From Antedon mediterranea (Eukaryota > Animalia > Echinodermata), in assembly GCF_964355755.1 (NCBI RefSeq), contig NC_092676.1, forward strand, positions 21,532,871-21,596,870: a stretch of DNA of 64,000 nucleotides. The letters run 5' to 3'. The notes beneath the pieces are model-generated. The model did not search any database, was not told the origin of the DNA, and saw only the letters and a program-made list of their open reading frames with translations. The translations under genes were made by a program, and so were the position numbers. Shown one piece after another: positions 18,171 through 49,427 of the stretch (position 1 is its first letter; every line of letters begins with the position of its first letter).

Positions 18171-18547
18171 TTTTACTTATTATTTATTCTATTATTTTTT
18201 TATACATACATTATCATTTAACAACATTTGTGTTTAATGATCCATTAAAAAAATTAGACATTTTTTTTTTCTTTTTAACCATTTTATCATTTCAAAATTC
18301 CACATGCAGTAAGAATGTGCAAATTACATATATACGGTATATACCTATAATATGAAAGCTTTGATGAAAACACTTCCCCACTTAAACCTAAACCTTCTTA
18401 TCCTTCATCATTTTTTTTTATCATCAATCTATAAAAAGCTTTTCACATTTTGTCTTTTTGTTTTCAAATCATCAAGGTACACATATTTACAAAACATACA
18501 GTATAGTAGCAAGAACAAAAAAAAAACATAATAGATTCATCATTCAT

Positions 18548-21500
18548 TATGGCAAGCCTCAGCTGTCTGAAGTATTCAAAATATTATATTATTATATCAT
18601 TTTCTATTATATTATATATTGTATTGTAATGAATTATACGTTTTGCATTATATTACTTGGTTTTAGCATTATATTATATCTATTTCTAATATATTATGTG
18701 AAAAATGTAACAAATTATTGACTTTTTGTATTATATTATTTTGTTTTAGCATTATATTATGAACATTTAATATTATATTAGTAATAAAATACATTATATT
18801 ATAATATAATTGTATTATATTAAACGCATTTACTTTACTTTATAACATACAACATTATTATATTATACGGATTCGTTAGTTATATTATTATTTTGTATGA
18901 TGTTTATTATACGTCACGGCTTATTTCAGTTCTTCTAACTCTTTCTCTCCCTCCCCCTGTTCACTAGCAATCAGCGGCCGGCAGAATCTGAATTGTGTGA
19001 CTGTTGAAGAATAACTACGTACTAGGCCTAGCCTAGGCCTACTAGGGGATCTAGACAAGTGACCAAGGATCACCGGACAGCTACAAATAATACTACAATA
19101 CAATAATACTACTACAATAACTACTACTGCTACTACCTAGGCCTAGCTAGTGAGTAGTAGGTAGCTACTACTAGGCTCTAGGGCGTATGTATGATGTTAA
19201 CTACTAGGGCCTAGGCTAGGCCTAGAGGCCTACTAGGCTAGGCCTAGACTTAAGTTGTAGTAGGCTAGGGCCGGGCCTGCTGCCTTAGGCTAGGCTACTG
19301 CTACTACTACTACTACTAGGCAGCCCATGATGGGTACGAGTAAGCCAAAATTTTGGATATATGTAAACCAAAATTTGGGTACGAGCGTGTTGGCATGGCA
19401 TGGGTACGGGTTGACCTGTATCCTTCTAATCTAGCTAATCGTACTATGCCTAGGCCTCAAGTAAGTCTACGCTACCCAGTCCGGCTACAATATGGTCTAT
19501 TTTGTTTTATAGCTTTATTGATAGCTGGGTTCAAATCTGTGTTGGGACGGCTTTTTCTCATTCTAAAACAGATTTCCTTATAATAAAATAATATATGAAT
19601 TTATTTGTAATATTGTAATGTATACATAATATAAGTAATTGCCATTGCCTTTATTACTATTAATTATGTATTATACAGTTACCCCTTAATTATACTATAG
19701 TATAATTTCCTTGTTATATTTTACAATATTTTCTTCCTAATTCTAAAATTTTGTCTTTCACAGCACAAATTTATCATACTGAATCATCACACACCAAGTC
19801 TCATAAATCTCTACTGTATTTGTCCAAGCTACTCCAGCTACATGGTATTGCCTTGAGGCTAAACTACACGGTATACTGGCACTACCATCATTCCTGGCTC
19901 GTCAACCTGTACCACATAAGCACAGTTTCAGTTTCAGTTTATTTACCATTTCAATTTCTGAACATAAGAGATGAACAACTTATATGGATGGATAACCGTA
20001 AGAGCGAAGCTCGTTTACCGGTCACCCGTTAGTGCAGTGACATTACAGAAAACATAAAGACAGGACAAAGGTGCAATACTTAACAAGACATGTGAACACT
20101 TGTGTTTGCAACCCCTTGGATAAAATAATATATTTATATAAAGGAGAAAGTTAGATATTATAATATTTCTTTTTGATCATACAATGATATTTTTTAAATT
20201 ACTTCTTAAGAAGTCATACTACTGATTCAAAATAGTGACTTACACCCTGTGGTCAAGGCTTTATTTGCTCTTATGCTTATTTCCTCCAACATACAGAGTA
20301 CATAGGACTTTTTTTATTCATAACTGTTGAATTGTTTCCCAATACATAGTACCTATTGGTATTATATCTAAAAATACAAAGGCGACTAACACAGATAGTT
20401 CCATATATACAGTACTCTTTTATAGATAGATGTATCTCTCCAAACTACTCCCAACTACCTAATCTAATAATAGTACTATTAGCATACTACTATACACTTT
20501 GTAGACAAGAAATAAGTTGTATACACCTACAGGACTTATGGTAGTACAGTCGATCGCACTCTCACTGGCCCGGTCAACATAATCTATACCTAGATTAATA
20601 TTACAGTAATTAAAGTACATTATTACAGAGTTTTGTTTTTTTTGCAGAAATCAAAGTTATGTGTATAGAAAGCAGTACTCGTATTAAAAACTAAGCAGGT
20701 TGCAGGTCTTGAATGCAAACTGGCAGGATATTTTGAATATTTTTTGTTGTTTAAATGATGGAATCCTAACTTCAGTTTCCACGAACTGGAGACGAAGACA
20801 TATTATGACCCTTTTATTTAAATTTATTTGAATAGACCTCCATGTAAAGTCATTAAAGGCTACATGATTGTTTTATATTTTAATATGTGATAGTAGGAAA
20901 TCATTGTGTATAATGAGGACTATGAATCTGATATTTACTTGCATTCTTATCTTTTTAAAATATTATTTATAATGCCGGTAATGAGTTTAAAATTTAATTA
21001 TATTGACTATTTTTGATAATCATCATGTCCTTATAAATTCATTTATACTTTTTTTGTGTAATATAGTTCATATATTATGTATTAAATAAATTGGTAAGGC
21101 CCTATACTGTTATTATTTAAGGAAAGTTTATATACACTATTATTTTATGCCTACCAATATTAGTATTAATTGTTTATGTAAATATTTTGTCTAATTGCCT
21201 TGATTTTTGTATAGGCCAATGGCATCAATGTTTTTCTCAAAGCAAATTAGCCTAATAATGCCACATTTAGACACATGATTCATTGATTTCTGATATTCTG
21301 TACTTGTGTGTATGCATTACTAAAATAGTAGTTAATATATTTCATTTATAATGTATGTATAAACATATATTCATATTTTTTTAAACATTTTTAAATTTAA
21401 AAATTATTACAATACCTATCTACCTTTCTGATATTGTTACTATTATATAATATTCTTTGAGGCAGCAATAAAAAAAAAATTAGAACAATTAATTTGACTT

Positions 21501-24500
21501 ATACTGTACTATGTTAGTTCAGGAGATGAAGTGTGTGTGGGCAGAAACTAGTGTGTTGGAGGTTGGTGGTGTGAGGTGTATAGTAGTCACTTTAAGACCT
21601 AAATTAGATGTTTTCTGAAGAAAAGAAGTAAGCGCATACGCTTTCAAACAACTCCAAGAAGATTCACACAAAAATAATTACTTTCCAATAAAGTAGTATA
21701 ACCAGGGAAGAGTTAACTCTTTCCTGGTATAACAGTGTATATTACAGTACATTGAATAAACTCGAGCGGAATAATAACGCACATAAAAAAACATTCATTT
21801 TCTTTTCGAAAAGTGCCCTCTCTAGTTTTCTATTAATTTATTAATAATTGTTATTAATTAATGAGTAATATGAACATACATATTAACATTTAATGCTGGA
21901 AACTATATCTACTCCTAACAAAGTTTCATATCTCCAAATTTCATTAACGTATTCAAAGCACTTCAATAAATTACATTTAACATTACAAATTCAAGTTTTG
22001 GATATAATTTTGCTTAAAAACATATACAAAAAACATCGATAAAAAATACTTTTCGTATTCAAAAACATTTGATACTTGGTATAAATGTTCAATATAGGTT
22101 GCTCCATCCATATTGCAAACAAAAAATAACTATCAAGCCATATCACTGATTTTTTAAATTTACGTTTTTACAAAATGTACACTTATGAAAGACCATACAA
22201 TTCCCACTCATTTTTTTCAAGCTAATAACTATTTTGAAAAAACAACCAACAAAAAACGTTCATGAATGCAATTTTCTTCTGTGAATAGAGCAACCTATAG
22301 TGAACATTTATACCAAGTATCAAATGTTTTTGAATACGAAAAGTATTTTTTATCGATGGTTTTTGTATATGTTTTTAAGCCAAAGTCTATCCAAAACCCG
22401 AATTTTTATGTTAAATGTGATATTTAATATTGAAGTGCTTTGAATACGTTAATGAAATTTAGAGATATGAAACTTTGTTAGGAGTAGAACCAGCTTCCAG
22501 CATTGAATGTTAAAAATATGTTCATATTACTCATTAATTAATAATAATAATAATATTAATAATAATAAATTAATAGAAAACTAGAGAGGGCACTTTTCGA
22601 AAAGAAAATGAATGTTTTTTTATGTGCGTTATTATTCCGCTCGAGTTTATTCAATGTACTGTAATATACACTGTTATACTACTTTATTGGAAAGTAATTA
22701 TTTTTGTGTGAATCTTCTTGGAGTTGTTTGAAAGCGTATGCGCTTACTTCTTTTCTTCAGAAAACATCTAATTTAGGTCTTAAAGTGACTACTATACACC
22801 TCACACAACCAACCTCCAACACACTAGTTTCTGCCCACACACACTTCATCTCCTGAACTAACATAGTACAGTATAAGTCAAATTAATTGTTCTAATTTTT
22901 TTTTTTATTGCTGCCTCAAAGAATATTATATAATAGTAACAATATCAGAAAGGTAGATAGGTATTGTAATAATTTTTAAATTTAAAAATGTTAAATAAAA
23001 ATATGAATATATGTTTATACATACATTATAAATGAAATATATTAACTACTATTTTAGTAATGCATACACACAAGTACAGAATATCAGAAATCAATGAATC
23101 ATGTGTCTAAATGTGGCATTATTAGGCTAATTTGCTTTGAGAAAAACATTGATGCCATTGGCCTATACAAAAATCAAGGCAATTAGACAAAATATTTACA
23201 TAAACAATTAATACTAATATTGGTAGGCATAAAATAATAGTGTATATAAACTTTCCTTAAATAATAACAGTATAGGGCCTTACCAATTTATTTAATACAT
23301 AATATATGAACTATATTACACATAAAAAGTATAAATGAATTTATAAGGACATGATGATTATCAAAAATAGTCAATATCATTAAATTTTAAACTCATTACC
23401 GGCATTATAAATAATATTTTAAAAAGATAAGAATGCAAGTAAATATCAGATTCATAGTCCTCATTATACACAATGATTTCCTACTATCACATATTAAAAT
23501 ATAAAACAATCATGTAGCCTTTAATGACTTTACATGGAGGTCTATTCAAATAAATTTAAATAAAAGGGTCATAATATGTCTTTGTCTCCAGTTCGTGGAA
23601 ATTGAAGTTAGGATTCTGGACATCATTTCAACAACAAAAAATATTCAAAATATCCTGCCAGTTCGCATTCAAGACCTGCAACCTGCTTAGTTTTTAATAC
23701 GAGTACTGCTTTCTATACACATAACTTTGATTTCTGCAAAAAAAACAAAACTCTGTAATAATGTACTTTAATTACTGTAATAATCTAGGTATAGATTATG
23801 TTGACCGGGCCAGTGAGAGTGCGATCGACTGTACTACCATAAGTCCTGTAGGTGTATACAACTTATTTCTTGTCTACAAAGTGTATAGTAGTATGCTAAT
23901 AGTACTATTATTAGATTAGGTAGTTGGGAGTAGTTTGGAGAGATACATCTATCTATAAAAGAGTACTGTATATATGGAACTATCTGTGTTAGCCGCCTTT
24001 GTATTTTTAGATATAATACCAATAGGTACTATGTATTGGGAAACAATTCAACAGTTATGAATAAAAAAAGTCCTATGTACTCTGTATGTTGGAGGAAATA
24101 AGCATAAGAGCAAATAAAGCCTTGACCACAGGGTGTAAGTCACTATTTTGAATCAGTAGTATGACTTCTTAAGAAGTAATTTAAAAATTATCATTGTATG
24201 ATCAAAAAGAAATATTATAATATCTAACTTTCTCCTTTATATAAATATATTATTTTATCCAAGGGGTTGTAAACACAAGTGTTCACATGTCTTGTTAAGT
24301 ATTGCACCTTTGTCCTGTCTTTATGTTTTCTGTAATGTCACTGCACTAACGGGTGACCGGTAAACGAGCTTCGCTCTTACGGTTATCCATCCATAAGTTG
24401 TTCATCTCTTATGTTCAGAAATTGAAATGGTAAATAAACTGAAACTGAAACTGTGCTTATGTGGTACAAGTTGACGAGCCAGGAATGATGGTAGTGCCAG

Positions 24501-25836
24501 TATACCGTGTAGTTTAGCCTCAAGGCAATACCATGTACCGTAGCTGGAGTAGCTTGGACAAATACAGTAGAGATTTATGAGACTTGGTGTGTGATGATTC
24601 AGTATGATAAATTTGTGCTGTGAAAGACAAAATTGTAGAATTAGGAAGAAAATATTGTAAAATATAACAAGGAAATTATACTATAGTATAATTAAGGGGT
24701 AACCGTATAATACATAATTAATAGTAATAATGGCAATTACTTATATTATGTATAAATTACAATATTACAAATAAATTCATATATTATTTTATTATAAGGA
24801 AATCTGTTTTAGAATGAGAAAAAGCCGTCCCAACACAGATTTGAACCCAGCTATCAATAAAGCTATAAAACAAAATAGACCATATTGTAGCCGGACTGGG
24901 TAGCGTAGACTTACTTGAGGCCTAGGCATAGTACGATTAGCTAGAAGGATACAGGTCAACCCGTAGTCCGTACCCATGCCATGCCAACACGCTCGTACCC
25001 AAATTTTGGTTTACATATATCCAAAATGTTGGCTTACTCCTACCCATCATGGGCTGCCTAGTAGTAGTAGTAGTAGTAGTAGTAGTAGCCTAGCCTAAGG
25101 CAGCAGGCCCGGCCCTAGCCTACTACAACTTAAGTCTAGGCCTAGCCTAGTAGGCCTCTAGGCCTAGCCTAGGCCCTAGTAGTTAACATCATACATACGC
25201 CCTAGAGCCTAGTAGTAGCTACCTACTACTCACTAGCTAGGCCTAGGTAGTAGCAGTAGTAGTTATTGTAGTAGTATTATTGTACTGTAGTATTAGTTGT
25301 AGCTGTCCGGTGATCCTTGGTCACTTGTCTAGATCCCCTAGTAGGCCTAGGCTAGGCCTAGTACGTAGTTATTCTTCAACAGTCACACAATTCAGATTCT
25401 GCCGGCCGCTGATTGCTAGTGAACAGGGGGAGGGAGAGAAAGAGTTAGAAGAACTGAAATAAGCCGTGACGTATAATAAACATCATACAAAATAATAATA
25501 TAACTAACGAATCCGTATAATATAATAATGTTGTATGTTATAAAGTAAAGTAAATGCGTTTAATATAATACAATTATATTATAATATAATGTATTTTATT
25601 AATAATATAATACTAAATGTTCATAATATAATGCTAAAACCAAATAATATAATACAAAAAGTCAATAATTTGTTACATTTTTCACATAATATATTAGAAA
25701 TAGATATAATATAATGCTAAAACCAAGTAATATAATGCAAAACGTATAATTCATTACAATACAATATATAATATAATAAAAAATTGATATAATAATATAA
25801 TATTTTGAATACTTCAGACAGCTGAGGCTTGCCATA
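18548..25836. mobile_element. Giant foldback DNA transposon, copy 1 (IS3EU-like, non-autonomous); arms 18548..22104 and 22288..25836
   Basis: Ends TATGGCAAGCCTCAGCTGTC / GACAGCTGAGGCTTGCCATA; 6-bp TSD ATTCAT (18542-18547, 25837-25842); mirror-image ORFs 20356..20544(+) and 23834..24022(-). Confidence 0.93.
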
Positions 25837-25842
25837 ATTCAT

Positions 25843-26650: not shown

Positions 26651-27025
26651 ATGATGCATTATTAACCATACAGTTTATGTGATACAAATTATTATATTTT
26701 TTGAGCGTCTTAATATCGTCAGTCTCGTCTCTATGGACGTCACCATGGAGGTCACCTTTTTAATTATCATTAGAATACTGACGAGTTTAATTTATGTTTT
26801 TAAAACAAATCTGCAAAAGATGACGTAGTAACCAAGCTACCAAACATAGCATATGCACAAGTTCCACATAGCAACAATGGCAAGCTAACATAAGGTGACA
26901 GTGATTTAACCAGCAAAGACCTTACCCAAGAAAAGGGCATATTCTCTAGTAGTAAGCCCCTTTAGTGATTGAGATTGTATCATATTGTATATGTTTAAAA
27001 AATAATTAATCAAAATATTATAAAC

Positions 27026-30000
27026 TATGGCAAGCCTCAGCTGTCTGAAGTATTCAAAATATTATATTATTATATCATTTTTTTATTATATTATATATTG
27101 TATTGTAATGAATTATACGTTTTGCATTATATTACTTGGTTTTAGCATTATATTATATCTATTTCTAATATATTATGTGAAAAATGTAACAAATTATTGA
27201 CTTTTTGTATTATATTATTTGGTTTTAGCATTATATTATGAACATTTAATATTATATTATTAATAAAATACATTATATTATAATATAATTGTATTATATT
27301 AAACGCATTTACTTTACTTTATAACATACAACATTATTATATTATACGGATTCGTTAGTTATATTATTATTTTGTATGATTTTTATTATACGTCACGGCT
27401 TATTTCAGTTCTTCTAACTCTTTCTCTCCCTCCCCCTGTTCACTAGCAATCAGCGGCCGGCAGAATCTGAATTGTGTGACTGTTGAAGAATAACTACGTA
27501 CTAGGCCTAGCCTAGGATCACCGGACAGCTACAACTAATACATACTACAATACAATAATACTACTACAATAACTACTACTGCTACTACCTAGGCCTAGCT
27601 AGTGAGTAGTAGGTAGCTACTACTAGGCTCTAGGGCGTATGTATGATGTTAACTTCTAGGGCCTAGGCTAGGCCTAGAGGCCTACTAGTACTAGGCTAGG
27701 CCTAGACTTAAGTTGTAGTAGGCTAGGGCCGGGCCTGCTGCCTTAGGCTAGGCTACTACTACTACTACTAGGCAGCCCATGATGGGTACGAGTAAGCCAA
27801 AATTTTGGATATATGTAAACCAAAATTTGGGTACGAGCGTGTTGGCATGGCATGGGTACGGGTTGACCTGTATCCTTCTAGCTAATCGTACTATGCCTAG
27901 GCCTCAAGTAAGTCTACGCTACCCAGTCCGGCTACAATATGGTCTATTTTGTTTTATAGCTTTATTGATAGCTGGGTTCAATTCTGGGTTGGGACGGCTT
28001 TTTCTCACTCTAAAACAGATTTCCTTATCATAAATAAAATAATATATGAATTTATTTGTAATATTGTAATGTATACATAATATAAGTAATTGCCATTGCC
28101 TTTATTACTATTAATTATGTATTATACGGTTACCCCTTAATTATACTATAGTATAATTTCCTTGTTATATTTTACAATATTTTCTTCCTAATTCTACAAT
28201 TTTGTCTTTCACAGCACAAATTTATCATACTGAATCATCACACACCAAGTCTCATAAATCTCTACTGTATTTGTCCAAGCTACTCCAGCTACATTGTATT
28301 GCCTTGAGGCTAAACTACACGGTATACTGGCACTACCATCATTCCTGGCTCGTCAACCTGTACCACATAAGCACAGTTTCAGTTTCAGTTTATTTACCAT
28401 TTCAATTTCTGAACATAAGAGATGAACAACTTATATGGATGGATAACCGTAAGAGCGAAGCTCGTTTACAGGACAGGACAAAGGTGCAATACTTAACAAG
28501 ACATGTGAACACTTGTGTTTGCAACCCCTTGGATAAAATAATATATTTATATAAAGGAGAAAGTTAGATATTATAATATTTCTTTTTGATCATACAATGA
28601 TAATTTTTAAATTACTTCTTAAGAAGTCATACTACTGATTCAAAATAGTGACTTACACCCTGTGGTCAATGCTTTATTTGCTCTTATGCTTATTTCCTCC
28701 AACATACAGAGTACATAGGACTTTTTTTATTCATAACTGTTGAATTGTTTTCCAATACATAGTACCTATTGGTATTATATCTAAAAATACAAAGGCGGCT
28801 AACACAGATAGTTCCATATATACAGTACTCTTTCATAGATAGATGTATCTCTCCAAACTGCTCCCAACTACCTAATCTAATAATAGTACTATTAGCATAC
28901 TACTATACACTTTGTAGACAAGAAATAAGTTGTATACACCTACAGGACTTATGGTAGTACAGTCGATCGCCCTCTCACTGGCCCGGTCAACATAATCTAT
29001 ACCTAGATTATTACAGTAATTAAAGTACATTATTACAGAATTTTTTTTTTTTTGCAGAAATCAAAGTTATGTGTATAGAAAGCAGTACTCGTATTAAAAA
29101 CTAAGCAGGTTGCAGGTCTTGAATGCAAACTGGCAGGATATTTTGAATATTGTTTGTTGTTGAAATGATGGAATCCTAACTTCAATTTCCACGAACTGGA
29201 GACGAAGACATATTATGACCCTTTTATTTAAATTTAATTGAATAGACCTCCATGTAAAGTCATTAAAGGCTACATGATTGTTTTATATTTTAATATGTGA
29301 TAGTAGGAAATCATTGTGTATAATGAGGACTATGAATCTGATATTTACTTGCATTCTTATCTTTTTAAAATATTATTTATAATGCCGGTAATGAGTTTAA
29401 AATTTAATTATATTGACTATTGTTGATAATCATCATGTCCTTATGAATTAATTTATACTTTTTTTGTGTAATAAAAGTTCATATATTATGTATTAAATAA
29501 ATTGGTAAGGCCCTATACTGTTATTATTTAAGGAAAGTTTATATACATTATTATTTTATGCCTACCAATATTAGTATTAATTGTTTATGTAAATATTTTG
29601 TCTAATTCCCTTGATTTTTGTATAGGCCAATGGCATCAATGTTTTTCTCAAAGCAAATTAGCCTAATAATGCCACATTTAGACACATGATTCATTGATTT
29701 CTGATATTCTGTACTTGTGTATGCATTACTAAAATAGTAGTTAATATATTTCATTTATAATGTATGTATAAACATATAGTCATATTTTTTTTAAACATTT
29801 TTAAATTTAAAAATTATTACAATACCTATCTACCTTTCTGATATTGTTACTATTATATAATATTTTTTGAGGCAGCAATAAAAAAAAATTAAAAAATTTA
29901 TTTGACTTATACTGTACTATGTTAGTTCAGGAGATGAAGTGTGTGTGGGCAGAAACTAGTGTGTTGGAGGTTGGTGGTGTGAGGTGTTTAGTTGTCACTT

Positions 30001-33000
30001 TAAGACCTAAATTAGATGTTTTCTGAAGAAAAGAAGTAAGCGGATACGCTTTCAAACAACTCCAAGAAGATTCACACAAAAATAATTACTTTCCAATAAA
30101 ATAGTATAACAGTGTATGTTACAGTACATTGAATAAACTCGAGCGGAATAATAACGCACATAAAAAACATTCATTTTCTTGTCGAAAAGTGCCCTCTCTA
30201 GTTTTCTATTAATTTATTAATAATTATTATCAATTAATGAGTAATATAAACATATTTTTAAAATTTAATGCTGGAAACTGTATCTACTCCTAACAAAGTT
30301 TCATATCTCCAAATTTCATCAACGTATTCAAAGCACTTAAATAAATTACATTTAACATTACAAATTCAGGTTTTGGATATAATTTTGCTTAAAAACATAT
30401 ACAAAAAACATCGATAAAAAATACTTTTCGTATTCAAAAACATTTGATACTTGGTATAAATGTTCAATATAGGTTGCTCCATCCATATTGCAAACAAAAA
30501 ATAACTATCAAGCCATATCACTGATTTTTTAAATTTACGTTTTTACAAAATGTACACTTATGAACGACCATACAATTCCAACTCATTTTTTTCAAGCTAA
30601 TAACTATTTTGAAAAAAACGACCAACAAAAAACGTTCATGAATGCAATTTTTTTTCTGTGAATAGAGCAACCTATAGTGAACATTTATACCAAGTATCAA
30701 ATGTTTTTGAATACGAAAAGTATTTTTTATCGATGTTTTTTGTATATGTTTTTAAGCAAAATTCTATCCAAAACCCGAATTTTTATGTTAAATGTGATAT
30801 TTAATATTGAAGTGCTTTGAATACGTTGATGAAATTTGGAGATATGAAACTTTGTTAGGAGTAGAACCAGCTTCCAGCATTGAATATTAAAAATATGTTC
30901 ATATTACTCATTAATTAATAATAATTATTAATAAATTAATAGAAAACTAGAGAGGGCACTTTTCGAAAAGAAAATGAATGTTTTTTTATGTGCGTTATTA
31001 TTCCGCTCGAGTTTATTCAATGTACTGTAATATACACTGTTATACTACTTTATTGGAAAGTAATTATTTTTGTGTGAATCTTCTTGGAGTTGTTTGAAAG
31101 CGTATCCGCTTACTTCTTTTCTTCAGAAAACATCTAATTTAGGTCTTAAAGTGACAACTAAACACCTCACACCACCAACATCCAACACACTAGTTTCTGC
31201 CCACACACACACTTTATCTCCTGAACTAACATAGTACAGTATAACTCAAATTAATTGTTCTAATTTTTTTTTTATTGCTGCCTCAAAGAATATTATATAA
31301 AGGTAAAACAATATCAGAAAGGTAGATAGGTATTGTAATAATTTTTTAATTTAAAAATGTTAAAAACAATGTGAATATATGTTTATACATACATTATAAA
31401 TGAAATATATTAACTACTATTTTAGTAATGCATACACAAGTACAGAATATCAGAAATAAATGAATCATGTGTCTAAATGTGGCATTATTAGGCTAATTTG
31501 CTTTGAGAAAAACATTGATGCCATTGGCCTATACAAAAAATCAAGGCAATTAGACAAAATATTTACATAAACAATTAATACTAATATTGGTAGGCATAAA
31601 ATAATAGTGTATATAAACTTTCCTTAAATAGTAACAGTATAGGGCCTTACCAATTTACTTAATACATAATATATGAACTATATTACACGAAAGAAATATA
31701 AATGAATTTATAAGGACATGATGATTATCAAAAATAGTCAATAATTAAATTTTAAACTCATTACCGGCATTATAAATAATAATTTAAAAAGATGAGAATG
31801 CAAGTAAATATCAGATTCATAGTCCTCATTATACACAATGATTTTCTACTATCACATATTAAAATATAAAACAATCATGTAGCCTTTAATGAGTTTACAT
31901 GGAGGTCTATTCAAATAAATTTAAATAAAAGGGTTCGTGGAAATTGAAGTTAGGATTCCATCATTTCAACAACAAAAATATTCAAAATATCCTGCCAGTT
32001 TGCGTTCAAGACCTGCAACCTGCTTAGTTTTTAATACGAGTACTGCTTTCTATACACATAACTTTGATTTCTGCAAAAAAAAAACAACCCTGTAATAATG
32101 TACTTTAATTACTGTAATAATCTAGGTATAGATTATGTTGACCGGGCCAGTGAGAGGGCGATCGACTGTACTACCATAAGTCCTCTAGTGTATACAACTT
32201 ATTTCTTGTCTACAAAGTGTATAGTAGTATGCTAATAGTACTATTATTAGATTAGGTAGTTGGGAGTAGTTTGGAGAGATACATTTATTTATAAAAGAGT
32301 ACTGTATATATGGAACTATCTGTGTTAGCCGCCTTTGTATTTTTAGATATAATACCAATAGGTACTATGTATTGGGAAACAATTCAACAGTTATGAATAA
32401 AAAAAGTCCTATGTACTCTGTATGTTGGAGGAAATAAGCATAAGAGCAAAGAAGCCTTGACCACAGGGTGTAAGTCTCTATTTTGAATCAGTAGTATGAC
32501 TTCTTAAGAAGTAATTAAAAAATTATCATTGTATGATCAAAAAGAAATATTATAATATCTAACTTTCTCCATTATATAAATATATTATTTTATCCAAGGG
32601 GTTGCAAACACAAGTGTTCACATGTCTTGTTAAGTATTGCACCTTTGTCCTGTCTTTATGTTGTCTGTAATGTCACTGCACTAACGGGTGGCCGGTAAAC
32701 GAGCTTCGCTCTTACGGTTATCCATCCATATAAGTTGTTCATCTCTTATGTTCAGAAATTGAAATGGTAAATAAACTCAAACTGAAACTGTGCTTATGTG
32801 GTACAGGTTGACGAGACAGGAATGATGGTAGTGCCAGTATACCGTGTAGTTTAGCCTCAAGGCAATACAATGTAGCTGGAGTAGCTTGGACAAATACAGT
32901 AGAGATTTATGAGACTTGGTGTGTGATGATTCAGTATGATAAATTTGTGCTGTGAAAGACAAAATTGTAGAATTAGGAAGAAAATATTGTAAAATATAAC

Positions 33001-34112: not shown

Positions 34113-34203
34113 ATAAACCACTCTTTTTACTGGCATTTTGAGATCTGATCTATAATGGTTACGTGTCTGTTTGTAATACCTATGATTACGAACTATAGGC
34201 CAG

Positions 34204-37200: not shown

Positions 37201-40200
37201 GGAGGTTGGTGGTGTGAGGAGGTGTATAGTTGTCACTTTAAGACCTAAATTAGATGTTTTCTGAAGAAAAGAAGTAAGCGCATACGCTTTCAAACAACTC
37301 CAAGAAGATTCACACAAAAATAATTACTTTCCAATAAAGTAGTATAACAGTGTATATTACAGTACATTGAATAAACTCGAGCGGAATAATAACGCACATA
37401 AAAAAACATTCATTTTCTTTTCGAAAAGTGCCCTCTCTAGTTTTCTATTAATTTATTAATAATTATTATTAATTAATGAGTAATATGAACATATTTTTAA
37501 TATTCAATGCTGGAAGCTGGTTCTACTCCTAACAAAGTTTCATATCTCCAAATTTCATCAACGTATTCAAAGCACTTCAATATTAAATATCACATTTAAC
37601 ATAAAAATTCGGGTTTTGGATAGAATTTTGCTTAAAAACATATACAAAAAACATCGATAAAAAATACTTTTCGTATTCAAAAACATTTGATACTTGGTAT
37701 AAATGTTCACTATAGTTTGCTCTATTCACAGAAAAAAAATTGCATTCATGAACGTTTTTTGTTGGTCGTTTTTTCAAAATAGTTATTAGCTTGAAAAAAA
37801 TGAGTTGGAATTGTATGGTCTTTCATAAGTGTACATTTTGTAAAAACGTAAATTTAAAAAATCAGTGATATGGCTTGATAGTTATTTTTTGTTTGCAATA
37901 TGGATGGAGCAACCTATATTGAACATTTATACCAAGTATCAAATGTTTTTGAATACGAAAAGTATTTTTTATCGATGTTTTTTGTATATGTTTTTAAGCA
38001 AAATTATATCCAAAACCTGAATTTGTAATGTTAAATGTAATTTTTATTTAAGTGCTTTGAATACGTTGATGAAATTTGGAGATATGAAACTTTGTTAGGA
38101 GTAGATACAGTTTCCAGCATTAAATTTTAAAAATATGTTTATATTACTCATTAATTGATAATAATTATTAATAAATTAATAGAAAACTAGAGAGGGCACT
38201 TTTCGACAAGAAAATGAATGTTTTTTATGTGCGTTATTATTCCGCTCGAGTTTATTCAATGTACTGTAATATACACTGTTATACTATTTTATTGGAAAGT
38301 AATTATTTTTGTGTGAATCTTCTTGGAGTTGTTTGAAAGCGTATCCGCTTACTTCTTTTCTTCAGAAAACATCTAATTTAGGTCTTAAAGTGACAACTAT
38401 ACACCTCACACCACCAACCTCCAACACACTAGTTTCTGCCCACACACACTTCATCTCCTGAACTAACATAGTACAGTATAAGTCAAATAAATTTTTTAAT
38501 TTTTTTTTATTGCTGCCTCAAAAAATATTATATAATAGTAACAATATCAGAAAGGTAGATAGGTATTGTAATAATTTTTAAATTTAAAAATGTTTAAAAA
38601 AAATAAGAATATATGTTTATACATACATTATAAATGAAATATATTAACTACTATTTTAGTAATGCATTCACAAGTACAGATTATCAGAAATCAATGAATC
38701 ATGTGTCTAAATGTGGTATTATTAGGCTAATTTGCTTTGAGAAAAACATTGATGCCATTGGCCTATACAAAAATCAAGGGAATTAGACAAAATATTTACA
38801 TAAACAATTAATACTAATATTGGTAGGCATAAAATAATAGTGTATATAAACTTTCCTTAAATAATAACAGTATAGGGCCTTACCAATTTATTTAATACAT
38901 AATATATGAACTATATTACACAAAAAAAGTATAAATGAATTTATAAGGACATGATGATTATCAAAAATAGTCAATATAATTAAATTTTAAACTCATTACC
39001 GGCATTATAAATAATATTTTTAAAAGATAAGAATGCAAGTAAATATCAGATTCATAGTCCTCATTATACACAATGATTTCCTACTATCACATATTAAAAT
39101 ATAAAACAATCATGCAGCCTTTAATGACTTTACATGGAGGTCTATTCAATTAAATTTAAATAAAAGGGTCATAATATGTCTTCGTCTCCAGTTCGTGGAA
39201 ATTGAAGTTAGGATTCCATCATTTCAACAACAAAAAATATTCAAAATATCCTGCCAGTTTGCATTCAAGACATGCAACCTGCTTAGTTTTTAATACGAGT
39301 ACTGCTTTCTATACACATAACTTTGATTTCTGCAAAAAAAAAAAAATTCTGTAATAATGTACTTTAATTACTGTAATAATCTAGGTATAGATTATGTTGA
39401 CCGGGCCAGTGAGAGGGCGATCGACTGTACTACCATAAGTCCTGTAGGTGTATACAACTTATTTCTTGTCTACAAAGTGTATAGTAGTATGCTAATAGTA
39501 CTATTATTAGATTAGGTAGTTGGGAGCAGTTTGGAGAGATACATCTATCTATGAAAGAGTACTGTATATATGGAACTATCTGTGTTAGCCACCTTTGTAT
39601 TTTTAGATATAATACCAATAGGTACTATGTATTGGGAAACAATTCAACAGTTATGAATAAAAAAAGTCCTATGTACTCTGTATGTTGGAGGAAATAAGCA
39701 AAAGAGCAAATAAAGCCTTGACCACAGGGTGTAAGTCACTATTTTGAATCAGTAGTATGACTTCTTAAGAAGTAATTTAAAAATTATCATTGTATGATCA
39801 AAAAGAAATATTATAATATCTAACTTTCTCCTTTATATAAATATATTATTTTATCCAAGGGGTTGCAAACTCAAGTGTTCACATGTCTTGTTAAGTATTG
39901 CACCTTTGTCCTGTCCTGTAAACGAGCTTCGCTCTTACGGTTATCCATCCATATAAGTTGTTCATCTCTTATGTTCAGAAATTGAAATGGTAAATAAACT
40001 GAAACTGTGCTTATGTGGTACAGGTTGACGAGCCAGGAATGATGGTAGTGCCAGTATACCGTGTAGTTTCCTCAAGGCAATACAATGTAGCTGGAGTAGC
40101 TTGGACAAATACAGTAGAGATTTATGAGACTTGGTGTGTGATGATTCAGTATGATAAATTTGTGCTGTGAAAGACAAAATTGTAGAATTAGGAAGAAAAT

Positions 40201-42243
40201 ATTGTAAAATATAACAAGGAAATTATACTATAGTATAATAAAGGGGTAACCGTATAATACATAATTAATAGTAATAAAGGCAATGGCAATTACTTATATT
40301 ATGTATACATTACAATATTACAAATAAATTCATATATTATTTTATTATGATAAGGAAATCTGTTTTAGAGTGAGAAAAAGCCGTCCCAACCCAGATTTGA
40401 ACCCAGCTATCAATAAAGCTATAAAACAAAATAGACCATATTGTAGCCGGACTGGGTAGCGTAGACTTACTTGAGGCCTAGGCATAGTACGATTAGCTAG
40501 AAGGATACAGGTCAACCCGTACCCATGCCATGCCAACACGCTCGCACCCAAATTTTGGTTTACATATGTTATGCGCGATTTGAACGATTTGCGCAATTTG
40601 AAATTGCGCAAAAAAAATCCTTGCGCAATTTGAATTGAAACATGTGTTTCAAATTGCGCAAGCAACGTATTAAATTGCGCAAGTAATCTGCAAATTGCGC
40701 AAGGTTTTTCGACAGATTGTGAAATCATGCACACCCATATTTTTATAGTAATTTCTAAGAATGATTCAAAATTAAAGATAAATATCGCATTTCCTTATTT
40801 TAGTAGTGCAAATATTGTTATAAGTTAGCATACCGTCGAAGAACCGACGAAGGAAAACGAAGCGGTGGTGTTACACCAGGCGGGCGCGGCGCGGGCGGCC
40901 GGCTATACTCTCTAGCCTAGCTAGGGTCTGGACTACTGATACTGACTAGGTTACATGGCCTAGCTTAAACTTATATTAAAAACTTAATTTTTACATTTAT
41001 TTTGATTTATTTCAAGTTACAGTGATAATATTATTTAATTGTAATAATAAATGTTATGTATTTATTATACACATGTTATCTTCGCATTTATTATGTTTTA
41101 TTTTGAGTTATTTAGTTTCCAATAAATTATTATAATACCGATTGTCTGGTAGAATTTTGTTGCGCAATTTGAAAATTTACAGTTCGTTTTCAAATTGCGC
41201 AAAGGTGTCATATTGCGCAAGAACTATCTTGCGCAATTTACAAATTGTGCAGCGCAATTTAAAATTGCGCAAAGATTTTCTTGCGCAATTTGAAATTGCG
41301 CAAGTTGATTGCGCAATTTGAAATTGCGCAAAAAAATCCTTGCGCAATTTTAAATTGCGCAAGAATTCTTTGCGCAATTTCAAATTGCGCAAGGATTTTT
41401 TTGCGCAATTTCAAATTGCGCAAATCGTTCAAATCGCGCATAACACATATATCCAAAATTTTGGCTTACTCGTACCCATCATGGGCTGCCTAGTAGTAGT
41501 AGTAGTAGCCTAGCCTAAGGCAGCAGGCCCGGCTCTAGCCTACTACATTAAGTCTAGGCCTAGCCTAGTAGTACTAGGCTAGTAGGCCTCTAGGCCTAGC
41601 CTAGGCCCTAGTAGTTAACATCATACATACGCCCCAGAGCCTAGTAGTAGCTACCTACTACTCACTAGCTAGGCCTAGGTAGTAGCAGTAGTAGTTATTG
41701 TAGTAGTATTATTGTATTGTAGTATTAGTTGTAGCTGTCCGGTGATCCTAGGCTAGGCCTAGTACGTAGGCCTAGTTATTCTTCAACAGTCACACAATTC
41801 AGATTCTACCGGCCGCTGATTGCTAGTGAACAGGGGGAGGGAGAGAAAGAGTTAGAAGAACTGAAATAAGCCGTGACGTATAATAAAAATCATACAAAAT
41901 AATAATATAACTAACGAATCCGTATAATATAATAATGTTGTATGTTATAAAGTAAAGTAAATGCGTTTAATATAATACAATTATATTATAATATAATGTA
42001 TTTTATTAATAATATAATATTAAATGTTCATAATATAATGCTAAAACCAAATAATATAATACAAAAAGTCAATAATTTGTTACATTTTTCACATAATATA
42101 TTAGAAATAGATATAATATAATGCTAAAACCAAGTAATATAATGCAAAACGTATAATTCATTACAATACAATATATAATATAATAAAAAAATGATATAAT
42201 AATATAATATTTTGAATACTTCAGACAGCTGAGGCTTGCCATA
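34204..42243. mobile_element. Giant foldback DNA transposon, copy 3; spacer 37723..37906 inverted; nested insertion in the right arm
   Basis: Same termini; GGCCAG at 34198-34203 and 42244-42249. Confidence 0.93.
40567..41445. mobile_element. 879-bp non-autonomous DNA transposon, Ginger-like
   Basis: TGT...ACA ends, TIR TGTTATGCGCGATTTGAACGATTTGCGCAATTTGAAATTGCGCA, 4-bp TSD CATA; absent from the other seven arms. Confidence 0.88.
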
Positions 42244-42249
42244 GGCCAG

Positions 42250-45200
42250 TATGGCAAGCCTCAGCTGTCTGAAGTATTCAAAATATTATATTATTATATC
42301 ATTTTTTTATTATATTATATATTGTATTGTAATGAATTATACGTTTTGCATTATATTACTTGGTTTTAGCATTATATTATATCTATTTCTAATATATTAT
42401 GTGAAAAATGTAACAAATTATTGACTTTTTGTATTATATTATTTGATTTTAGCATTATATTATGAACATTTAATATTATATTATTAATAAAATACATTAT
42501 ATTATAATATAATTGTATTATATTAAACGCATTTACTTTACTTTATAACATACAACATTATTATATTATACGGATTCGTTAGTTATATTATTATTTTGTA
42601 TGATGTTTATTATACGTCACGGCTTATTTCAGTTCTTCTAACTCTTTCTCTCCCTCCCCCTGTTCACTAGCAATCAGCGGCCGGCAGAATCTGAATTGTG
42701 ACTGTTGAAGAATAACTACGTACTAGGCCTAGCCTAGGGGATCTAGACAAGTGACCAAGGATCACCGGACAGCTACAACTAATACTACAATACAATAATA
42801 CTACTACAATAACTACTACTGCTACTACCTAGGCCTAGCTAGTGAGTAGTAGGTAGCTACTACTAGGCTCTAGGGCGTATGTATGATGTTAACTACTAGG
42901 GCCTAGGCCTAGGCTAGGCCTAGAGGCCTACTAGTACTAGGCTAGGCCTAGACTTAAGTTGTAGTAGGCTAGGGCCGGGCCTGCTGCCTTAGGCTAGGCT
43001 ACTACTACTACTACTACTAGGCAGCCCATGATGGGTACGAGTAAGCCAAAATTTTGGATATATGTAAACCAAAATTTGGGTACGAGCGTGTTGGCATGGC
43101 ATGGGTACGGGTTGACCTGTATCCTTCTAGCTAATCGTACTATGCCTAGGCCTCAAGTAAGTCTACGCTACCCAGTCCGGCTACAATATGGTCTATTTTG
43201 TTTTATAGCTTTATTGATAGCTGTGTTCAAATCTGGGTTGGGACGGCTTTTTCTCATTCTAAAACAGATTTCCTTATCATAATAAAATAATATATGAATT
43301 TATTTGTAATATTATTGTAATGTATACATAATATAAGTAATTGCCATTGCCTTTATTACTATTAATTATGTATTATACGGTTACCCCTTAATTATACTAT
43401 AGTATAATTTCCTTGTTATATTTCACAATATTTTCTTCCTAATTCTACAATTTTGTCTTTCACAGCACAAATTTATCATACTGAATCATCACACACCAAG
43501 TCTCATAAATCTCTACTGTATTTGTCCAAGCTACTCCAGCTACATGGTATTGCCTTGAGGCTAAACTACACGGTATACTGGCACTACCATCATTCCTGGC
43601 TCGTCAACCTGTACCACATAAGCACAGTTTCAGTTTATTTACCATTTCAATTTCTGAACATAAGAGATGAACAACTTATATGGATGGATAACCGTAAGAG
43701 CGAAGCTCGTTTACCGGTCACCCGTTAGTGCAGTGACATTACAGAAAACATAAAGACAGGACAAAGGTGCAATACTTAACAAGACATGTGAACACTTGTG
43801 TTTGCAACCCCTTGGATAAAATAATATATTTATATAAAGGAGAAAGTTAGATATTATAATATTTCTTTTTGATCATACAATGATAATTTTTAAATTACTT
43901 CTTAAGAAGTCATACTACTGATTCAAAATAGTGACTTACACCCTGTGGTCAAGGCTTTATTTGCTCTTATGCGTATTTCCTCCAACATATAGAGTACATA
44001 GGACTTTTTTTATTCATAACTGTTGAATTGTTTCCCAATACATAGTACCTATTGGTATTATATCTAAAAATACAAAGGCGGCTAACACAGATAGTTCCAT
44101 ATATACAGTACTCTTTTATAGATAGATGCATCTCTCCAAACTACTCCCAACTACCTAATCTAATAATAGTACTATTAGCATACTACTATACACTTTGAAG
44201 ACAAGAAATAAGTTGTATACACCTACAGGACTTATGGTAGTACAGTCGAACGCCCTCTCACTGGCCCGGTAAACATAATCTATACCTAGATTATTACAGT
44301 AATTAAAGTACATTATTACAGAGTTTTTTTTTTTTTTTTGCAGAAATCAAAGTTATGTGTATAGAAAGCAGTACTCGTATTAAAAACTAAGCAGGTTGCA
44401 GGTCTTGAATGCAAACTGGCAGGATATTTTGAATATTTTTTGTTGTTGAAATGATGGAATCTTAACTTCAATTTCCACGAACTGGAGACGAAGACATATT
44501 ATGACCCTTTCATTTAAATTTATTTGAATAGACCTCCATGTAAAGTCATTAAAGGTTACATGATTGTTTTATATTTTAATATGTGATAGTAGGAAATCAT
44601 TGTGTATAATGAGGACTATGAATCTGATATTTACTTGCATTCTTATCTTTTTAAAATATTATTTATAATGCCGGTAATGAGTTTAAAATTTAATTATATT
44701 GACTATTTTTGATAATCATCATGTCCTTATAAATTCATTTATACTTTTTTTGTGTAATACAGTTCATATATTATGTATTAAATAAATTGGTAAGGCCCTA
44801 TACTGTTACTATTTAAGGAAAGTTTATATACACTATTATTTTATGCCTACCAATATTAGTATTAATTGTTTATGCAAATATTTTGTCTAATTGCCTTGAT
44901 TTTTGTATAGGCCAATGGCATCAATGTTTTTCTCAAAGCAAATTAGCCTAATAATGCCACATTTAGACACATGATTCATTGATTTCTGATATTCTGTACT
45001 TGTGTATGCATTACTAAAATAGTAGTTAATATATTTCATTTATAATGTATGTATAAACATATATTCATATTTTTTTTTAACATTTTTAAATTTAAAAATT
45101 ATTACAATACCTATCTACCTTTCTGATATTGTTACTATTATATAATATTTTTTGAGGCAGCAATAAAAAAAAATTAAAAAATTTATTTGACTTATACTGT

Positions 45201-48200
45201 ACTATGTTAGATCAGGAGATGAAGTGTGTGTGGGCAGAAACTAGTGTGTTGGAGGTTGGTGGTGTGAGGTGTATAGTTGTCACTTTAAGACCTAAATTAG
45301 ATGTTTTCTGAAGAAAAGAAGTAAGCGGATACGCTTTCAAACAACTCCAAGAAGATTCACACAAAAATAATTACTTTCCAATAAAATAGTATAACAGTGT
45401 ATATTACAGTACATTGAATAAACTCGAGCGGAATAATAACACACATAAAAAAAAATTCATTTTCTTGTCGAAAAGTGCCCTCTCTAGTTTTCTATTAATT
45501 TATTAATAATTATTATCAATTAATGAGTAATATGAACATATTTTTAAAATTTAATGCTGGAAACTGTATCTACTCCTAACAAAGTTTCATATCTCCAAAT
45601 TTCATCAACGTATTCAAAGCACTTAAATAAATTACATTTAACATTACAAATTCAGGTTTTGGATATAATTTTGCTTAAAAACATATACAAAAAACATCGA
45701 TAAAAATTACTTTTCGTATTCAAAAACATTTGATACTTGGTATAAATGTTCAATATAGGTTGCTCCATCCATATTGCAAACAAAAAATAACTATCAAGCC
45801 ATATCACTGATTTTTTAAATTTACGTTTTTACAAAATGTACACTTATGAAAGACCATACAATTCCAACTCATTTTTTTCAAGCTAATAACTATTTTGAAA
45901 AAACAACCAACAAAAAACGTTCATGAATGCAATTTTTTTCTGTGAATAGAGCAACCTATAGTGAATATTTATACCAAGTATCAAATGTTTTTGAATACGA
46001 AAAGTATTTTTTATCGATGTTTTTTGTATATGTTTTTAAGCAAAATTCTATCCAAAACCCGAATTTTTATGTTAAATGTGATATTTAATATTGAAGTGCT
46101 TTGAATACGTTGATGAAATTTGGAGATATGAAACTTTGTTAGGAGTAGAACCAGCTTCCAGCATTGAATGTTAAAAATATGTTCATATTACTCATTAATT
46201 AATAATAATTATTAATAAATTAATAGAAAACTAGAGAGGGCACTTTTCGAAAAGAAAATGAATGTTTTTTTATGTGCGTTATTATTCCGCTCGAGTTTAT
46301 TCAATGTACTGTAATATACACTGTTATACTACTTTATTGGAAAGTAATTATTTTTGTGTGAATCTTCTTGGAGTTGTTTGAAAGCGTATGCGCTTACTTC
46401 TTTTCTTCAGAAAACATCTAATTTAGGTCTTAAAGTGACAACTATACACGTCACACCACCAACCTCCAACACACTAGTTTCTGCCCACACACACTTCATC
46501 TCCTGAACTAACATAGTACAGTATAAGTCAAATTAATTGTTCCAATTTTTTTTTTATTGCTGCCTCAAAGAATATTATATAATAGTAACAATATCAGAAA
46601 GGTAGATAGGTATTGTAATAATTTTTAAATTTAAAAATGTTAAAAAAAATATGAATATATGTTTATACATACATTATAAATGAAATATATTAACTACTAT
46701 TTTAGTAATGCATACACAAGTACAGAATATCAGAAATCAATGAATCATGTGTCTAAATGTGGCATTATTAGGCTAATTTGCTTTGAGAAAAACATTGATG
46801 CCATTGGCCTATACAAAAAATCAAGGCAATTAGACAAAATATTTAAATAAACAATTAATACTAATATTGGTAGGCATAAAATAATAGTGTATATAAACTT
46901 TCCTTAAATAGTAACAGTATAGGGCCTTACCAATTTACTTAATACATAATATATGAACTATATTACACAAAAGAAATATAAATGAATTCATAAGGACATG
47001 ATGATTATCAAAAATAGTCAATATAATTAAATTTTAAACTCATTACCGGCATTATAAATAATAATTTAAAAAGATGAGAATGCAAGTAAATATCAGATTC
47101 ATAGTCCTCATTATACACAATGATTTTCTACTATCACTTATTAAAATATAAAACAATCATGTAGCCTTTAATGAGTTTACATGGAGGTCTATTCAAATAA
47201 ATTTAAATAAAAGGGTTCGTGGAAATTGAAGTTAGGATTCCATCATTTCAACAACAAAAAATATTCAAAATATCCTGCCAGTTTGCGTTCAAGACCTGCA
47301 TCCTGCTTAGTTTTTAATACGAGTACTGCTTTCTATACACATAACTTTGATTTCTGCAAAAAAAAACAACTCTGTAATAATGTACTTTAATTACTGTAAT
47401 AATCTAGGTATAGATTATGTTGACCGGGCCAGTGAGAGGGCGATCGACTGTACTACCATAAGTCCTCTAGGTGTATACAACTTATTTCTTGTCTACAAAG
47501 TGTATAGTAGTATGCTAATAGTACTATTATTAGATTAGGTAGTTGGGAGTAGTTTGGAGAGATACATTTATTTATAAAAGAGTACTGTATATATGGAACT
47601 ATCTGTGTTAGCCGCCTTTGTATTTTTAGATATAATACCAATAGGTACTATGTATTGGGAAACAATTCAACAGTTATGAATAAAAAAAGTCCTATGTACT
47701 CTGTATGTTGGAGGAAATAAGCATAAGAGCAAAGAAAGCCTTGACCACAGGGTGTAAGTCACTATTTTGAATCAGTAGTATGACTTCTTAAGAAGTAATT
47801 TAAAAATTATCATTGTATGATCAAAAAGAAATATTATAATATCTAACTTTCTCCATTATATAAATATATTATTTTATCCAAGGGGTTGCAAACACAAATG
47901 TTCACATGTCTTGTTAAGTATTGCACCTTTGTCCTGTCTTTATGTTGTCTGTAATGTCACTGCACTAACGGGTGACCGGTAAACGAGCTTCGCTCTTACG
48001 GTTATCCATCCATATAAGTTGTTCATCTCTTATGTTCAGAAATTGAAATAGTAAATAAACTGAAACTGAAACTGTGCTTATGTTATGTGGTACAGGTTGA
48101 CGAGCCAGGAATGATGGTAGTGCCAATATACCGTGTAGTTTAGCCTCAAGGCAATACCATGTAGCTGGAGTAGCTTGGACAAATACAGTAGAGATTTATG

Positions 48201-48645
48201 AGACTTGGTGTGTGATGATTCAGTATGATAAATTTGTGCTGTGAAAGACAAAATTGTAGAATTAGGAAGAAAATATTGTAAAATATAACAAGGAAATTAT
48301 ACTATAGTATAATTAAGGGGTAACCGTATAATACATAATTAATAGTAATAAAGGCAATGGCAATTACTTATATTATGTATACATTACAATATTACAAATA
48401 AATTCATATATTATTTTATTATAAGGAAATCTGTTTTAGAATGAGAAAAAGCCGTCCCAACCCAGATTTGAACCCAGCTATCAATAAAGCTATATAAAAC
48501 AAAATAGACCATATTGTAGCCGGACTGGGTAGCGTAGACTTACTTGAGGCCTAGGCATAGTACGATTAGCTAGACACGCTCGTACCCAAATTTTGGTTTA
48601 CATGTATCCAAAATTTTGGCTTACTCGTACCCATCATGGGCTGCC

Positions 48646-48678
<33 letters not shown>

Positions 48679-49427
48679 CCTAGCCTAAGGCAGCAGGCCC
48701 GGCCCTAGCCTACTACAACTTAAGTCTAGGCCTAGCCTAGTATTAGTAGGCCTCTAGGCCTAGCCTAGGCCTAGGCCCTAGTAGTTAACATCATACATAC
48801 GCCTAGTAGCTACCTACTACTCACTAGCTAGGCCTAGGTAGTTATTGTAGTAGTTATTGTAGTAGTATTATTGTATTGTAGTATTAGTTGTAGCTGTCCG
48901 GTGATCCTTGGTCACTTGTCTAGATCCCCTAGTAGGCCTAGGCTAGGCCTAGTACGTAGTTATTCTTCAACAGTCACACAATTCAGATTCTGCCAGCCGC
49001 TGATTGCTAGTGAACAGGGGGAGGGAGAGAAAGAGTTAGAAGAACTGAAATAAGCCGTGACGTATAATAAACATCATACAAAATAATAATATAACTAACG
49101 AATCCGTATAATATAATAATGTTGTATGTTATAAAGTAAAGTAAATGCGTTTAATATAATACAATTATATTATAATATAATGTATTTTATTAATAATATA
49201 ATATTAAATGTTCATAATATAATGCTAAAACCAAATAATATAATACAAAAAGTCAATAATTTGTTACATTTTTCACATAATATATTAGAAATAGATATAA
49301 TATAATGCTAAAACCAAGTAATATAATGCAAAACGTATAATTCATTACAATACAATATATAATATAATAAAAAAATGATATAATAATATAATATTTTGAA
49401 TACTTCAGACAGCTGAGGCTTGCCATA
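42250..49427. mobile_element. Giant foldback DNA transposon, copy 4; spacer 45766..45948; tandem with copy 3
   Basis: Same termini; GGCCAG at 42244-42249 and 49428-49433. Confidence 0.93.

What the first reader, a model, noticed from the sequence alone, without database searches (positions are those of the whole stretch)
18548..49427. Family of giant (~7.2 kb) almost fully palindromic transposons with IS3EU-type ends
Seen: four copies (7289, 7087, 8040 including a nested insert, and 7178 bp), each made of two ~3.5-kb inverted arms around a ~185-bp spacer, so about 97% of the element is palindrome. All end TATGG...CCATA and have 6-bp TSDs (ATTCAT, ATAAAC, GGCCAG). No transposase ORF is recognisable. 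Known: TAY..RTA ends with a 6-bp TSD is the signature described for the poorly studied IS3EU superfamily; classical foldback elements (FB/MULE, Galileo/P) have other TSD lengths. Inference: a recently mobile, non-coding foldback form of IS3EU whose whole body is TIR. I am not aware of this being described, but cannot search.
Basis: partly seen in the sequence, partly recalled or inferred. Interest (0 to 1): 0.88.

Follow-up and report, generated by a model that had tools for sequence, protein, structure and literature searches.

The report
Giant palindromic IS3EU-type foldback transposons
Four copies of a 7-kb, gene-less jumping element built as an almost complete mirror image sit side by side in an animal genome; their ends and 6-base insertion scars match the little-studied IS3EU/GingerRoot group, which likely moves them, so this is an unusually large and informative variant of known foldback transposons rather than a new class.

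Summary
Four elements (7289, 7087, 8040, 7178 bp) have 3.45-3.56-kb inverted arms around a 183-185-bp spacer, identical TATGG...CCATA ends and exact 6-bp duplications. TAYGG..CCRTA with a 6-bp TSD is the published IS3EU signature. No coding remnant or partner transposase was found, so membership rests on the ends. New here: arms group by side across copies, so the palindrome moves as a unit. Arm-to-arm difference rises from ends to centre (rho 0.91), and E1 has a converted block. E3 and E4 are an opposite-orientation dimer at one target. Arm and spacer occur in three related organisms, the fold-back joint in two. Each arm carries an inward GT..AG intron that is skipped in runs of two studies, so it is likely transcribed. 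Foldback shape is known from MULE and P elements with TIRs up to about 1.7 kb; I found no paper on foldback IS3EU, but Repbase and Dfam could not be searched. This scan already noted 2-4.7-kb palindromes of this type in other genomes (unchecked). Verdict: new variant of a known kind; interest 0.5.

The parts
18548..25836 (+). E1, complete foldback element: arm a 18548-22104, spacer 22105-22287, arm b 22288-25836; flanked by ATTCAT at 18542-18547 and 25837-25842
27026..34112 (+). E2, complete element: arm a 27026-30479, spacer 30480-30664, arm b 30665-34112; flanked by ATAAAC at 27020-27025 and 34113-34118
34204..42243 (-). E3, complete element in opposite orientation (spacer 37723-37906 reversed), 91 bp from E2; flanked by GGCCAG at 34198-34203 and 42244-42249
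42250..49427 (+). E4, complete element: arm a 42250-45765, spacer 45766-45948, arm b 45949-49427; shares GGCCAG 42244-42249 with E3, right copy at 49428-49433
42244..42249 (.). single 6-bp target copy between E3 and E4 (tandem-dimer junction; three GGCCAG copies in all)
   Evidence: pattern as for P-element dimers in 10.1101/158386
40567..41445 (.). 879-bp nested non-coding element in E3, TGT...ACA ends with a 50-bp perfect TIR and 4-bp CATA duplication (alternative parse GTT...AAC with 6-bp ACATAT)
18590..18866 (.). degenerate AT-rich subterminal tandem repeats (periods 21/42/83), found at all ends
20071..20647 (+). GT..AG intron of an inward-pointing transcript in E1 arm a; donor and acceptor kept in 8 of 8 arms (mirror copy in E1 arm b about 23734-24307, minus strand)
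20142..21855 (.). E1 tract in which both arms carry the same side-diagnostic alleles (11 a-type sites, then 6 b-type sites): arm-to-arm exchange

Best explanation
These are four copies of a gene-less foldback DNA transposon, 7.1-7.3 kb long and 97% inverted repeat, likely moved by a transposase of the IS3EU/GingerRoot group encoded elsewhere in the genome. Shown: symmetric TATGG...CCATA ends, exact 6-bp duplications, no coding remnant found, arms that group by side across copies, arm-to-arm difference that rises towards the centre, a block of shared alleles in E1, and a GT..AG intron skipped in two runs. Inferred: (1) the element arose when one end region of an IS3EU element, with its inward promoter and spliced exons, was copied in inverted form over the other end while the transposase gene was lost; (2) it is cut and pasted whole by a partner transposase making 6-bp staggered cuts; (3) arms are kept alike by conversion or repair that starts at the paired ends and seldom reaches the centre; (4) the cluster arose by local hopping or a hot spot, and E3-E4 by a second insertion into an existing target copy.
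For: Ends and TSD. Published signature 'TAYGG..CCRTA', 6-bp TSD (PMC12730594); 'TA..TA termini, TSDs usually 6 bp' (PMC10045372); 7 of 7 IS3EU consensus rows seen start TATGG or TACGG (14 of 54 occurrences shown). No Pfam family in 6 frames of E1 arm a plus spacer, 3 frames of E2 arm a and 6 frames of E4 arm b. Side-wise grouping: 28 sites separate a from b arms in E2-E4. Gradient: Spearman 0.91 over 15 bins (bins not independent). E1 block: 11 a-type then 6 b-type sites, p=1.6e-4 for such a split; at 5 of the a-type sites the b allele is all or nearly all that is read in organisms B and C, so E1's b arm likely took derived a alleles. Family in organisms A, B, C along arm and spacer; opposite-strand joint 22104/22275 in X6 (side 35) and X7 (side 67); a foreign flank at 18547 in X7. 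Joint 20070/20648 with GT..AG in X1 and X11, two studies. E3 and E4 differ in orientation, and E3a is nearest E2a (28 differences), not E4a (45), so the dimer is not a tandem duplication.
Against: No transposase, autonomous partner or empty site was found; no genome is held for this window, and pattern scans of metagenome and viral contigs gave 0 hits. hAT6 families also make 6-bp TSDs and I could not see their termini. Only three independent TSDs were measured. Published IS3EU/GingerRoot TIRs are short (over 30 bp; 100-150 bp). The splice joint has only 18 and 30 letters on its shorter side, under the tool's 31-letter bridging mark, and neither run is on record as RNA. The gradient could in part be selection on end sequences rather than conversion. 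No record spans a whole arm.
Confidence: 0.85

Rival explanations
1. A foldback derivative of a hAT6 element (hAT lineage with 6-bp TSDs).
For: hAT6 families with 6-bp TSDs exist among animal hATs (PMC12730594); TA is an allowed hAT start (recalled).
Against: The third base T does not fit the hAT end consensus YARNG (recalled), and the 7 hAT7 rows seen start CAAC or CAGC. hAT TIRs are given as 10-25 bp with 8-bp TSDs (PMC3942097). The 5-base match is to IS3EU. hAT6 termini themselves were not seen.
Confidence: 0.06
2. A derivative of another 6-bp-TSD group (Polinton, Ginger2) or of an undescribed superfamily that converged on these ends.
For: Polinton and Ginger2 are given 6-bp TSDs (PMC6839031); no protein ties the element to IS3EU.
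Against: Polinton ends are AG and Ginger ends TG..CA; neither fits TATGG. No match in viral contigs.
Confidence: 0.06
3. Assembly artefact or non-mobile inverted segmental duplications.
For: No long read spanning a palindrome could be examined; palindromes are a known assembly hazard (general knowledge).
Against: Arms differ by 45-80 substitutions and side-specific alleles are shared between copies; three different targets are duplicated exactly; the fold-back joint is in contigs of two other organisms.
Confidence: 0.03

Closest known systems
IS3EU/GingerRoot superfamily (PMC10045372, PMC12730594, PMC6839031; passages read; supplement rows)
   Same: TAYGG..CCRTA ends, 6-bp TSD, occurrence in aquatic animals, non-autonomous members known (28 of 45 Repbase families).
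   Different: Described TIRs are over 30 bp to 150 bp; here the inverted arm is about 3.5 kb and 97% of the element; no transposase or passenger gene.
Galileo 2-TIR elements, P superfamily (PMC3573991, passages)
   Same: Non-autonomous copies made almost wholly of TIR; TIRs lengthen by recruiting inner sequence; longest TIRs are in copies without transposase.
   Different: TIRs at most about 1.26 kb, 7-bp TSD, different superfamily.
Foldback elements FB/Tetris, mostly MULE (PMC4079207, introduction and passages)
   Same: Long modular TIRs, small middle, no ORF, subterminal tandem repeats; foldback form proposed to arise independently by transposase loss and TIR growth.
   Different: Tetris TIRs up to 1,735 bp with 8-10-bp TSDs and long inner tandem arrays; here arms are twice as long, mostly non-repetitive, and hold a spliced unit.
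Mu killer of maize (PMC3440606, abstract)
   Same: Two copies of one end region of a transposon in inverted order, able in principle to give hairpin RNA.
   Different: Mu killer is one locus that holds transposase sequence and silences MuDR; this family is multi-copy and mobile, holds no recognisable transposase sequence, and silencing is untested.
Tandem dimers by double insertion (10.1101/158386, passages)
   Same: One TSD-length target copy between two complete elements, as at E3-E4.
   Different: Described for P, hobo, jockey and R1 in Drosophila, not for IS3EU-type elements in what I read.

Membership tests
IS3EU/GingerRoot | TA..TA termini, TAYGG..CCRTA | tested here: met
   8 of 8 ends TATGG; definition
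IS3EU/GingerRoot | 6-bp target site duplication | tested here: met
   4 of 4 elements, 3 distinct targets; only parse that fits all
IS3EU/GingerRoot | IS3/integrase-like DDE transposase in the element or an autonomous partner with the same ends | tested here: inconclusive
   none in the element, as expected for a non-autonomous copy; partner could not be sought, no genome held
IS3EU/GingerRoot | short TIRs as described (over 30 bp; 100-150 bp) | tested here: not met
   arms 3448-3557 bp; TIR length is called unreliable for classification in PMC3573991, so this marks a variant
IS3EU/GingerRoot | DNA similarity to a named Repbase/Dfam IS3EU family | not testable with these tools
   no repeat library is available
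Foldback architecture (FB, Galileo, Tetris) | long TIRs making up most of the element, small middle, no ORF | tested here: met
   97.4-97.5% arm, 183-185-bp spacer
Foldback architecture (FB, Galileo, Tetris) | tandem repeats inside the TIR | tested here: met
   degenerate 21/42/83-bp repeats in the outer 300 bp only
MULE or P-type foldback | 8-10-bp (MULE-like) or 7-bp (Galileo) TSD | tested here: not met
   TSD is 6 bp; lengths
hAT6 | 6-bp TSD | tested here: met
hAT6 | hAT-type end consensus and hAT transposase | tested here: inconclusive
   TATGG does not fit YARNG (recalled); hAT6 ends not found in papers
Polinton/Maverick | AG termini; polymerase and integrase genes | tested here: not met
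   ends are TA (definition); no genes
Tc1/mariner | TA duplication | tested here: not met
   a parse with TA outside the ends is possible but leaves the 6-bp repeats unexplained

The most novel reading that the evidence does not exclude
IS3EU/GingerRoot elements routinely spawn multi-kilobase, self-repairing palindromes in which one end region with its own spliced promoter is mirrored; these spread to hundreds of copies, persist across species, and by read-through or cruciform pairing act as mobile 'killer' hairpins that silence their autonomous partners, a mobile counterpart of maize Mu killer.
Probability: 0.12. Interest if true: 0.78.

Novelty: new variant of a known kind. Interest (0 to 1): 0.5.

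Why it matters
It extends the foldback form to IS3EU/GingerRoot, a superfamily whose structure is called largely unexplored (PMC11934779), with arms about twice the longest I read of for Galileo or Tetris. Multi-kilobase palindromes are usually unstable (general knowledge), yet these are moved whole and kept in at least three organisms. The side-specific alleles and the end-to-centre gradient give a natural read-out of arm-to-arm conversion, and the ends give a handle to find the partner transposase. Such elements could also seed inversions and confuse assemblers and repeat annotators.

Tried and rejected
No whole genome is held, so no genome-wide copy count, TSD census or partner search. Exact-pattern scans: 0 hits in metagenome contigs (22-mer) and viral contigs (18-mer). 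Coding remnants: 0 Pfam families in 15 arm frames read with X at stops; no usable Atlas hit for the longest arm ORF, 136 aa; 0 hits among 1.84 billion proteins for one frame of 19764-21101 (the other two frames were not searched there); the joined exons give only short frames. Rfam: only tRNAs, none in the elements. The spacer is no residual palindrome (562 of 2000 and 443 of 1000 shuffles reach its scores), so a once-perfect hairpin is not supported. No RNA holder is listed on record. X11 has no cover on 14900-16134 and almost none on 21816-22287; contigs cannot show where an RNA ends, so I do not use this for or against read-through. RNA editing, noted in an earlier scan report, is not evident: A>G and T>C counts in X11 (12, 17) resemble those of X6 of the same organism, which I take to be DNA (10, 13). 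Summed depth in X2 (48,000-321,000 per bin against 281-296 on two long, mostly flank contigs) hints at hundreds of copies but is no copy number. Literature: 'IS3EU'+'palindrom' gave 3 papers, none by title or abstract on foldback IS3EU; searches gave none either. Repbase, Dfam, Repbase Reports and most subscription papers were not searchable. The supplement of PMC10045372 (transposase alignments) was not opened. The Atlas look-up of a neighbouring GPCR placed the host only as an animal.
Full report
Observation. A self-comparison of the window shows four related elements between 18548 and 49427, each matching itself and the others on the opposite strand over about 3.5 kb. Their limits are E1 18548-25836, E2 27026-34112, E3 34204-42243 and E4 42250-49427. 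All eight ends begin TATGGCAAGCCTCAGCTG, and the flanks are ATTCAT, ATAAAC, GGCCAG and GGCCAG. Shifting the ends by up to two bases leaves 6 bp as the only duplication length that fits all four; three independent matches have a chance of about 3e-10. Arms are 3448-3557 bp and spacers 183-185 bp, so 97.4-97.5% is arm once the 879-bp insert in E3 is set aside. E3 lies in the opposite orientation. The host is an animal: the window holds rhodopsin-family receptor genes, a LINE fragment and a tRNA-Lys array.

Not an artefact. The two arms of one element differ by 45-80 substitutions plus indels, which a fold-back chimera would not give. In public runs the arm and spacer are covered in three coded organisms (30 of 30 bins in X2, X1 and X6; 27 of 30 in X7). 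A contig joint between spacer place 22275 and arm place 22104 on opposite strands stands in X6 and X7, and X7 shows a different flank at the element's end. No record spans a whole arm, so long-read proof is still missing. Summed depth hints at a high-copy family but is no count.

No gene found. Stop-to-stop frames in the arms reach at most 136 aa. Fifteen arm frames read with X at stops gave no Pfam family. The longest ORF gave no usable Atlas hit, and one frame over the exon region found nothing among 1.84 billion proteins. Rfam finds nothing in the elements.

Superfamily. Kojima and Bao state that complete IS3EU families have TA..TA termini and usually 6-bp TSDs, and join IS3EU with GingerRoot (PMC10045372, passages). 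Fungal IS3EU end with TAYGG..CCRTA and make 6-bp TSDs (PMC12730594, passage); the 7 consensus rows I saw start TATGG or TACGG. GingerRoot has 6-bp TSDs, mostly TA ends and 100-150-bp TIRs, while Polinton ends are AG and Ginger ends TG..CA (PMC6839031, passages). hAT6 also makes 6-bp TSDs; its ends were not in the papers I could search, and the hAT consensus that argues against it is recalled. Two of the three defining IS3EU features are met, and the transposase test stays open because no genome is held.

How the palindrome behaves. With arms labelled by spacer side, a arms are 0.8-1.6% apart and b arms 1.2-1.9%, while a against b is 1.3-2.5%. Twenty-eight sites separate a from b in E2-E4, none in the outer 1.6 kb. 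The element is therefore copied as a unit with two distinct sides. The a/b difference in E2-E4 rises from 0.1% at the ends to 5% next to the spacer (Spearman 0.91 over 15 bins). E1 breaks the pattern: both arms are a-type at 11 consecutive sites (20142-21051), then b-type at 6 (21455-21855), and distinct at 10 of the inner 11; such a split has p=1.6e-4. At five of the a-type sites the b allele is all or nearly all that is read in organisms B and C and the commoner one in organism A, so E1's b arm likely received derived a alleles. I read this as arm-to-arm conversion that is most frequent near the ends; selection on the ends may add to the gradient. The spacer is not a decayed palindrome, which fits inward growth of a TIR, as described for Galileo (PMC3573991, passages), better than a once-perfect hairpin.

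The cluster. E3 and E4 are separated by one GGCCAG and flanked by two more. They have opposite orientation and E3a is nearer E2a than E4a, so this is likely a second insertion into an existing target copy, the pattern shown for P-element dimers (10.1101/158386, passages). The four a arms share alleles that are in the minority in run X2, a hint of local hopping; contigs drop rare variants, so this is weak.

A spliced unit in each arm. A loose end in X1 ran from 20070 into the letters found only at 20648 of the arm. Laid again, X1 (organism A) and X11 (organism B), from two studies, both show a joint that skips 577 bases with GT..AG ends. Donor and acceptor, with a pyrimidine tract, are kept in 8 of 8 arms. 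Against: the shorter side of the joint is 18 and 30 letters, and neither run is on record as RNA. The direction is inward. Because the two arms are mirror copies, transcripts from both would have the same sense; double-stranded RNA would need read-through across the spacer, which I could not test. The unit is likely the promoter and first exons of a lost gene of the parent element (inference).

Comparison and novelty. Foldback form is known and thought to arise repeatedly by transposase loss and TIR growth, mostly in MULEs, with Tetris TIRs up to 1,735 bp (PMC4079207, introduction and passages) and Galileo up to about 1,260 bp. Mu killer is an inverted duplication of one transposon end that silences its parent (PMC3440606, abstract), an analogy only. 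My searches showed no paper on a foldback IS3EU, but Repbase, Dfam and most subscription journals were out of reach. This scan's notes list 2-4.7-kb palindromes with the same ends or TSD in other genomes (unchecked, found after my reading was stated); no look-alike of this arm was on file. Those notes suggest the form recurs, and this case adds size, four comparable copies, a dimer and splicing. Verdict: real, a new variant of a known kind, interest 0.5.

Noticed in passing
window 1-2683, 3990-4616, 7961-8671: Tandem array of tRNA-Lys(CTT) genes with a 145-bp period, 17 copies in the first block, broken by a LINE fragment; decayed copies further on.
   Followed up: partly
window 3081-3998 (-): 305-aa frame with a zf-RVT match below cut-off, likely the tail of a non-LTR retrotransposon inserted in the tRNA array.
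   Followed up: partly
window 8792-9865 and 15006-16067 (+): Two single-exon rhodopsin-family GPCR genes (7tm_1, E about 1e-39).
   Followed up: partly
window 16186-16372 and 59673-59861: About 190-bp palindromic MITE-like repeat, 95% alike, with very high depth and many different flanks in X1 and X11.
   Followed up: partly
window 40567-41445: Nested 879-bp element with TGT...ACA ends, 4-bp duplication and repeated TTGCGCAA palindromes; ends and TSD length fit Ginger1 as given, unproven; a 6-bp parse is also possible.
   Followed up: partly
window 21696-21726: 31-bp insertion private to E1 arm a, with a 7-bp duplication; the skip is seen in X2, X6 and X7.
   Followed up: no
window 19898-20212: Family variants in organisms A and B replace about 300 bp here, including the splice donor, with about 20 other letters.
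   Followed up: no
window 50963-51397 (+): Frame with a GGGG motif that looks like a patatin-type phospholipase exon (recalled; no Pfam hit).
   Followed up: no
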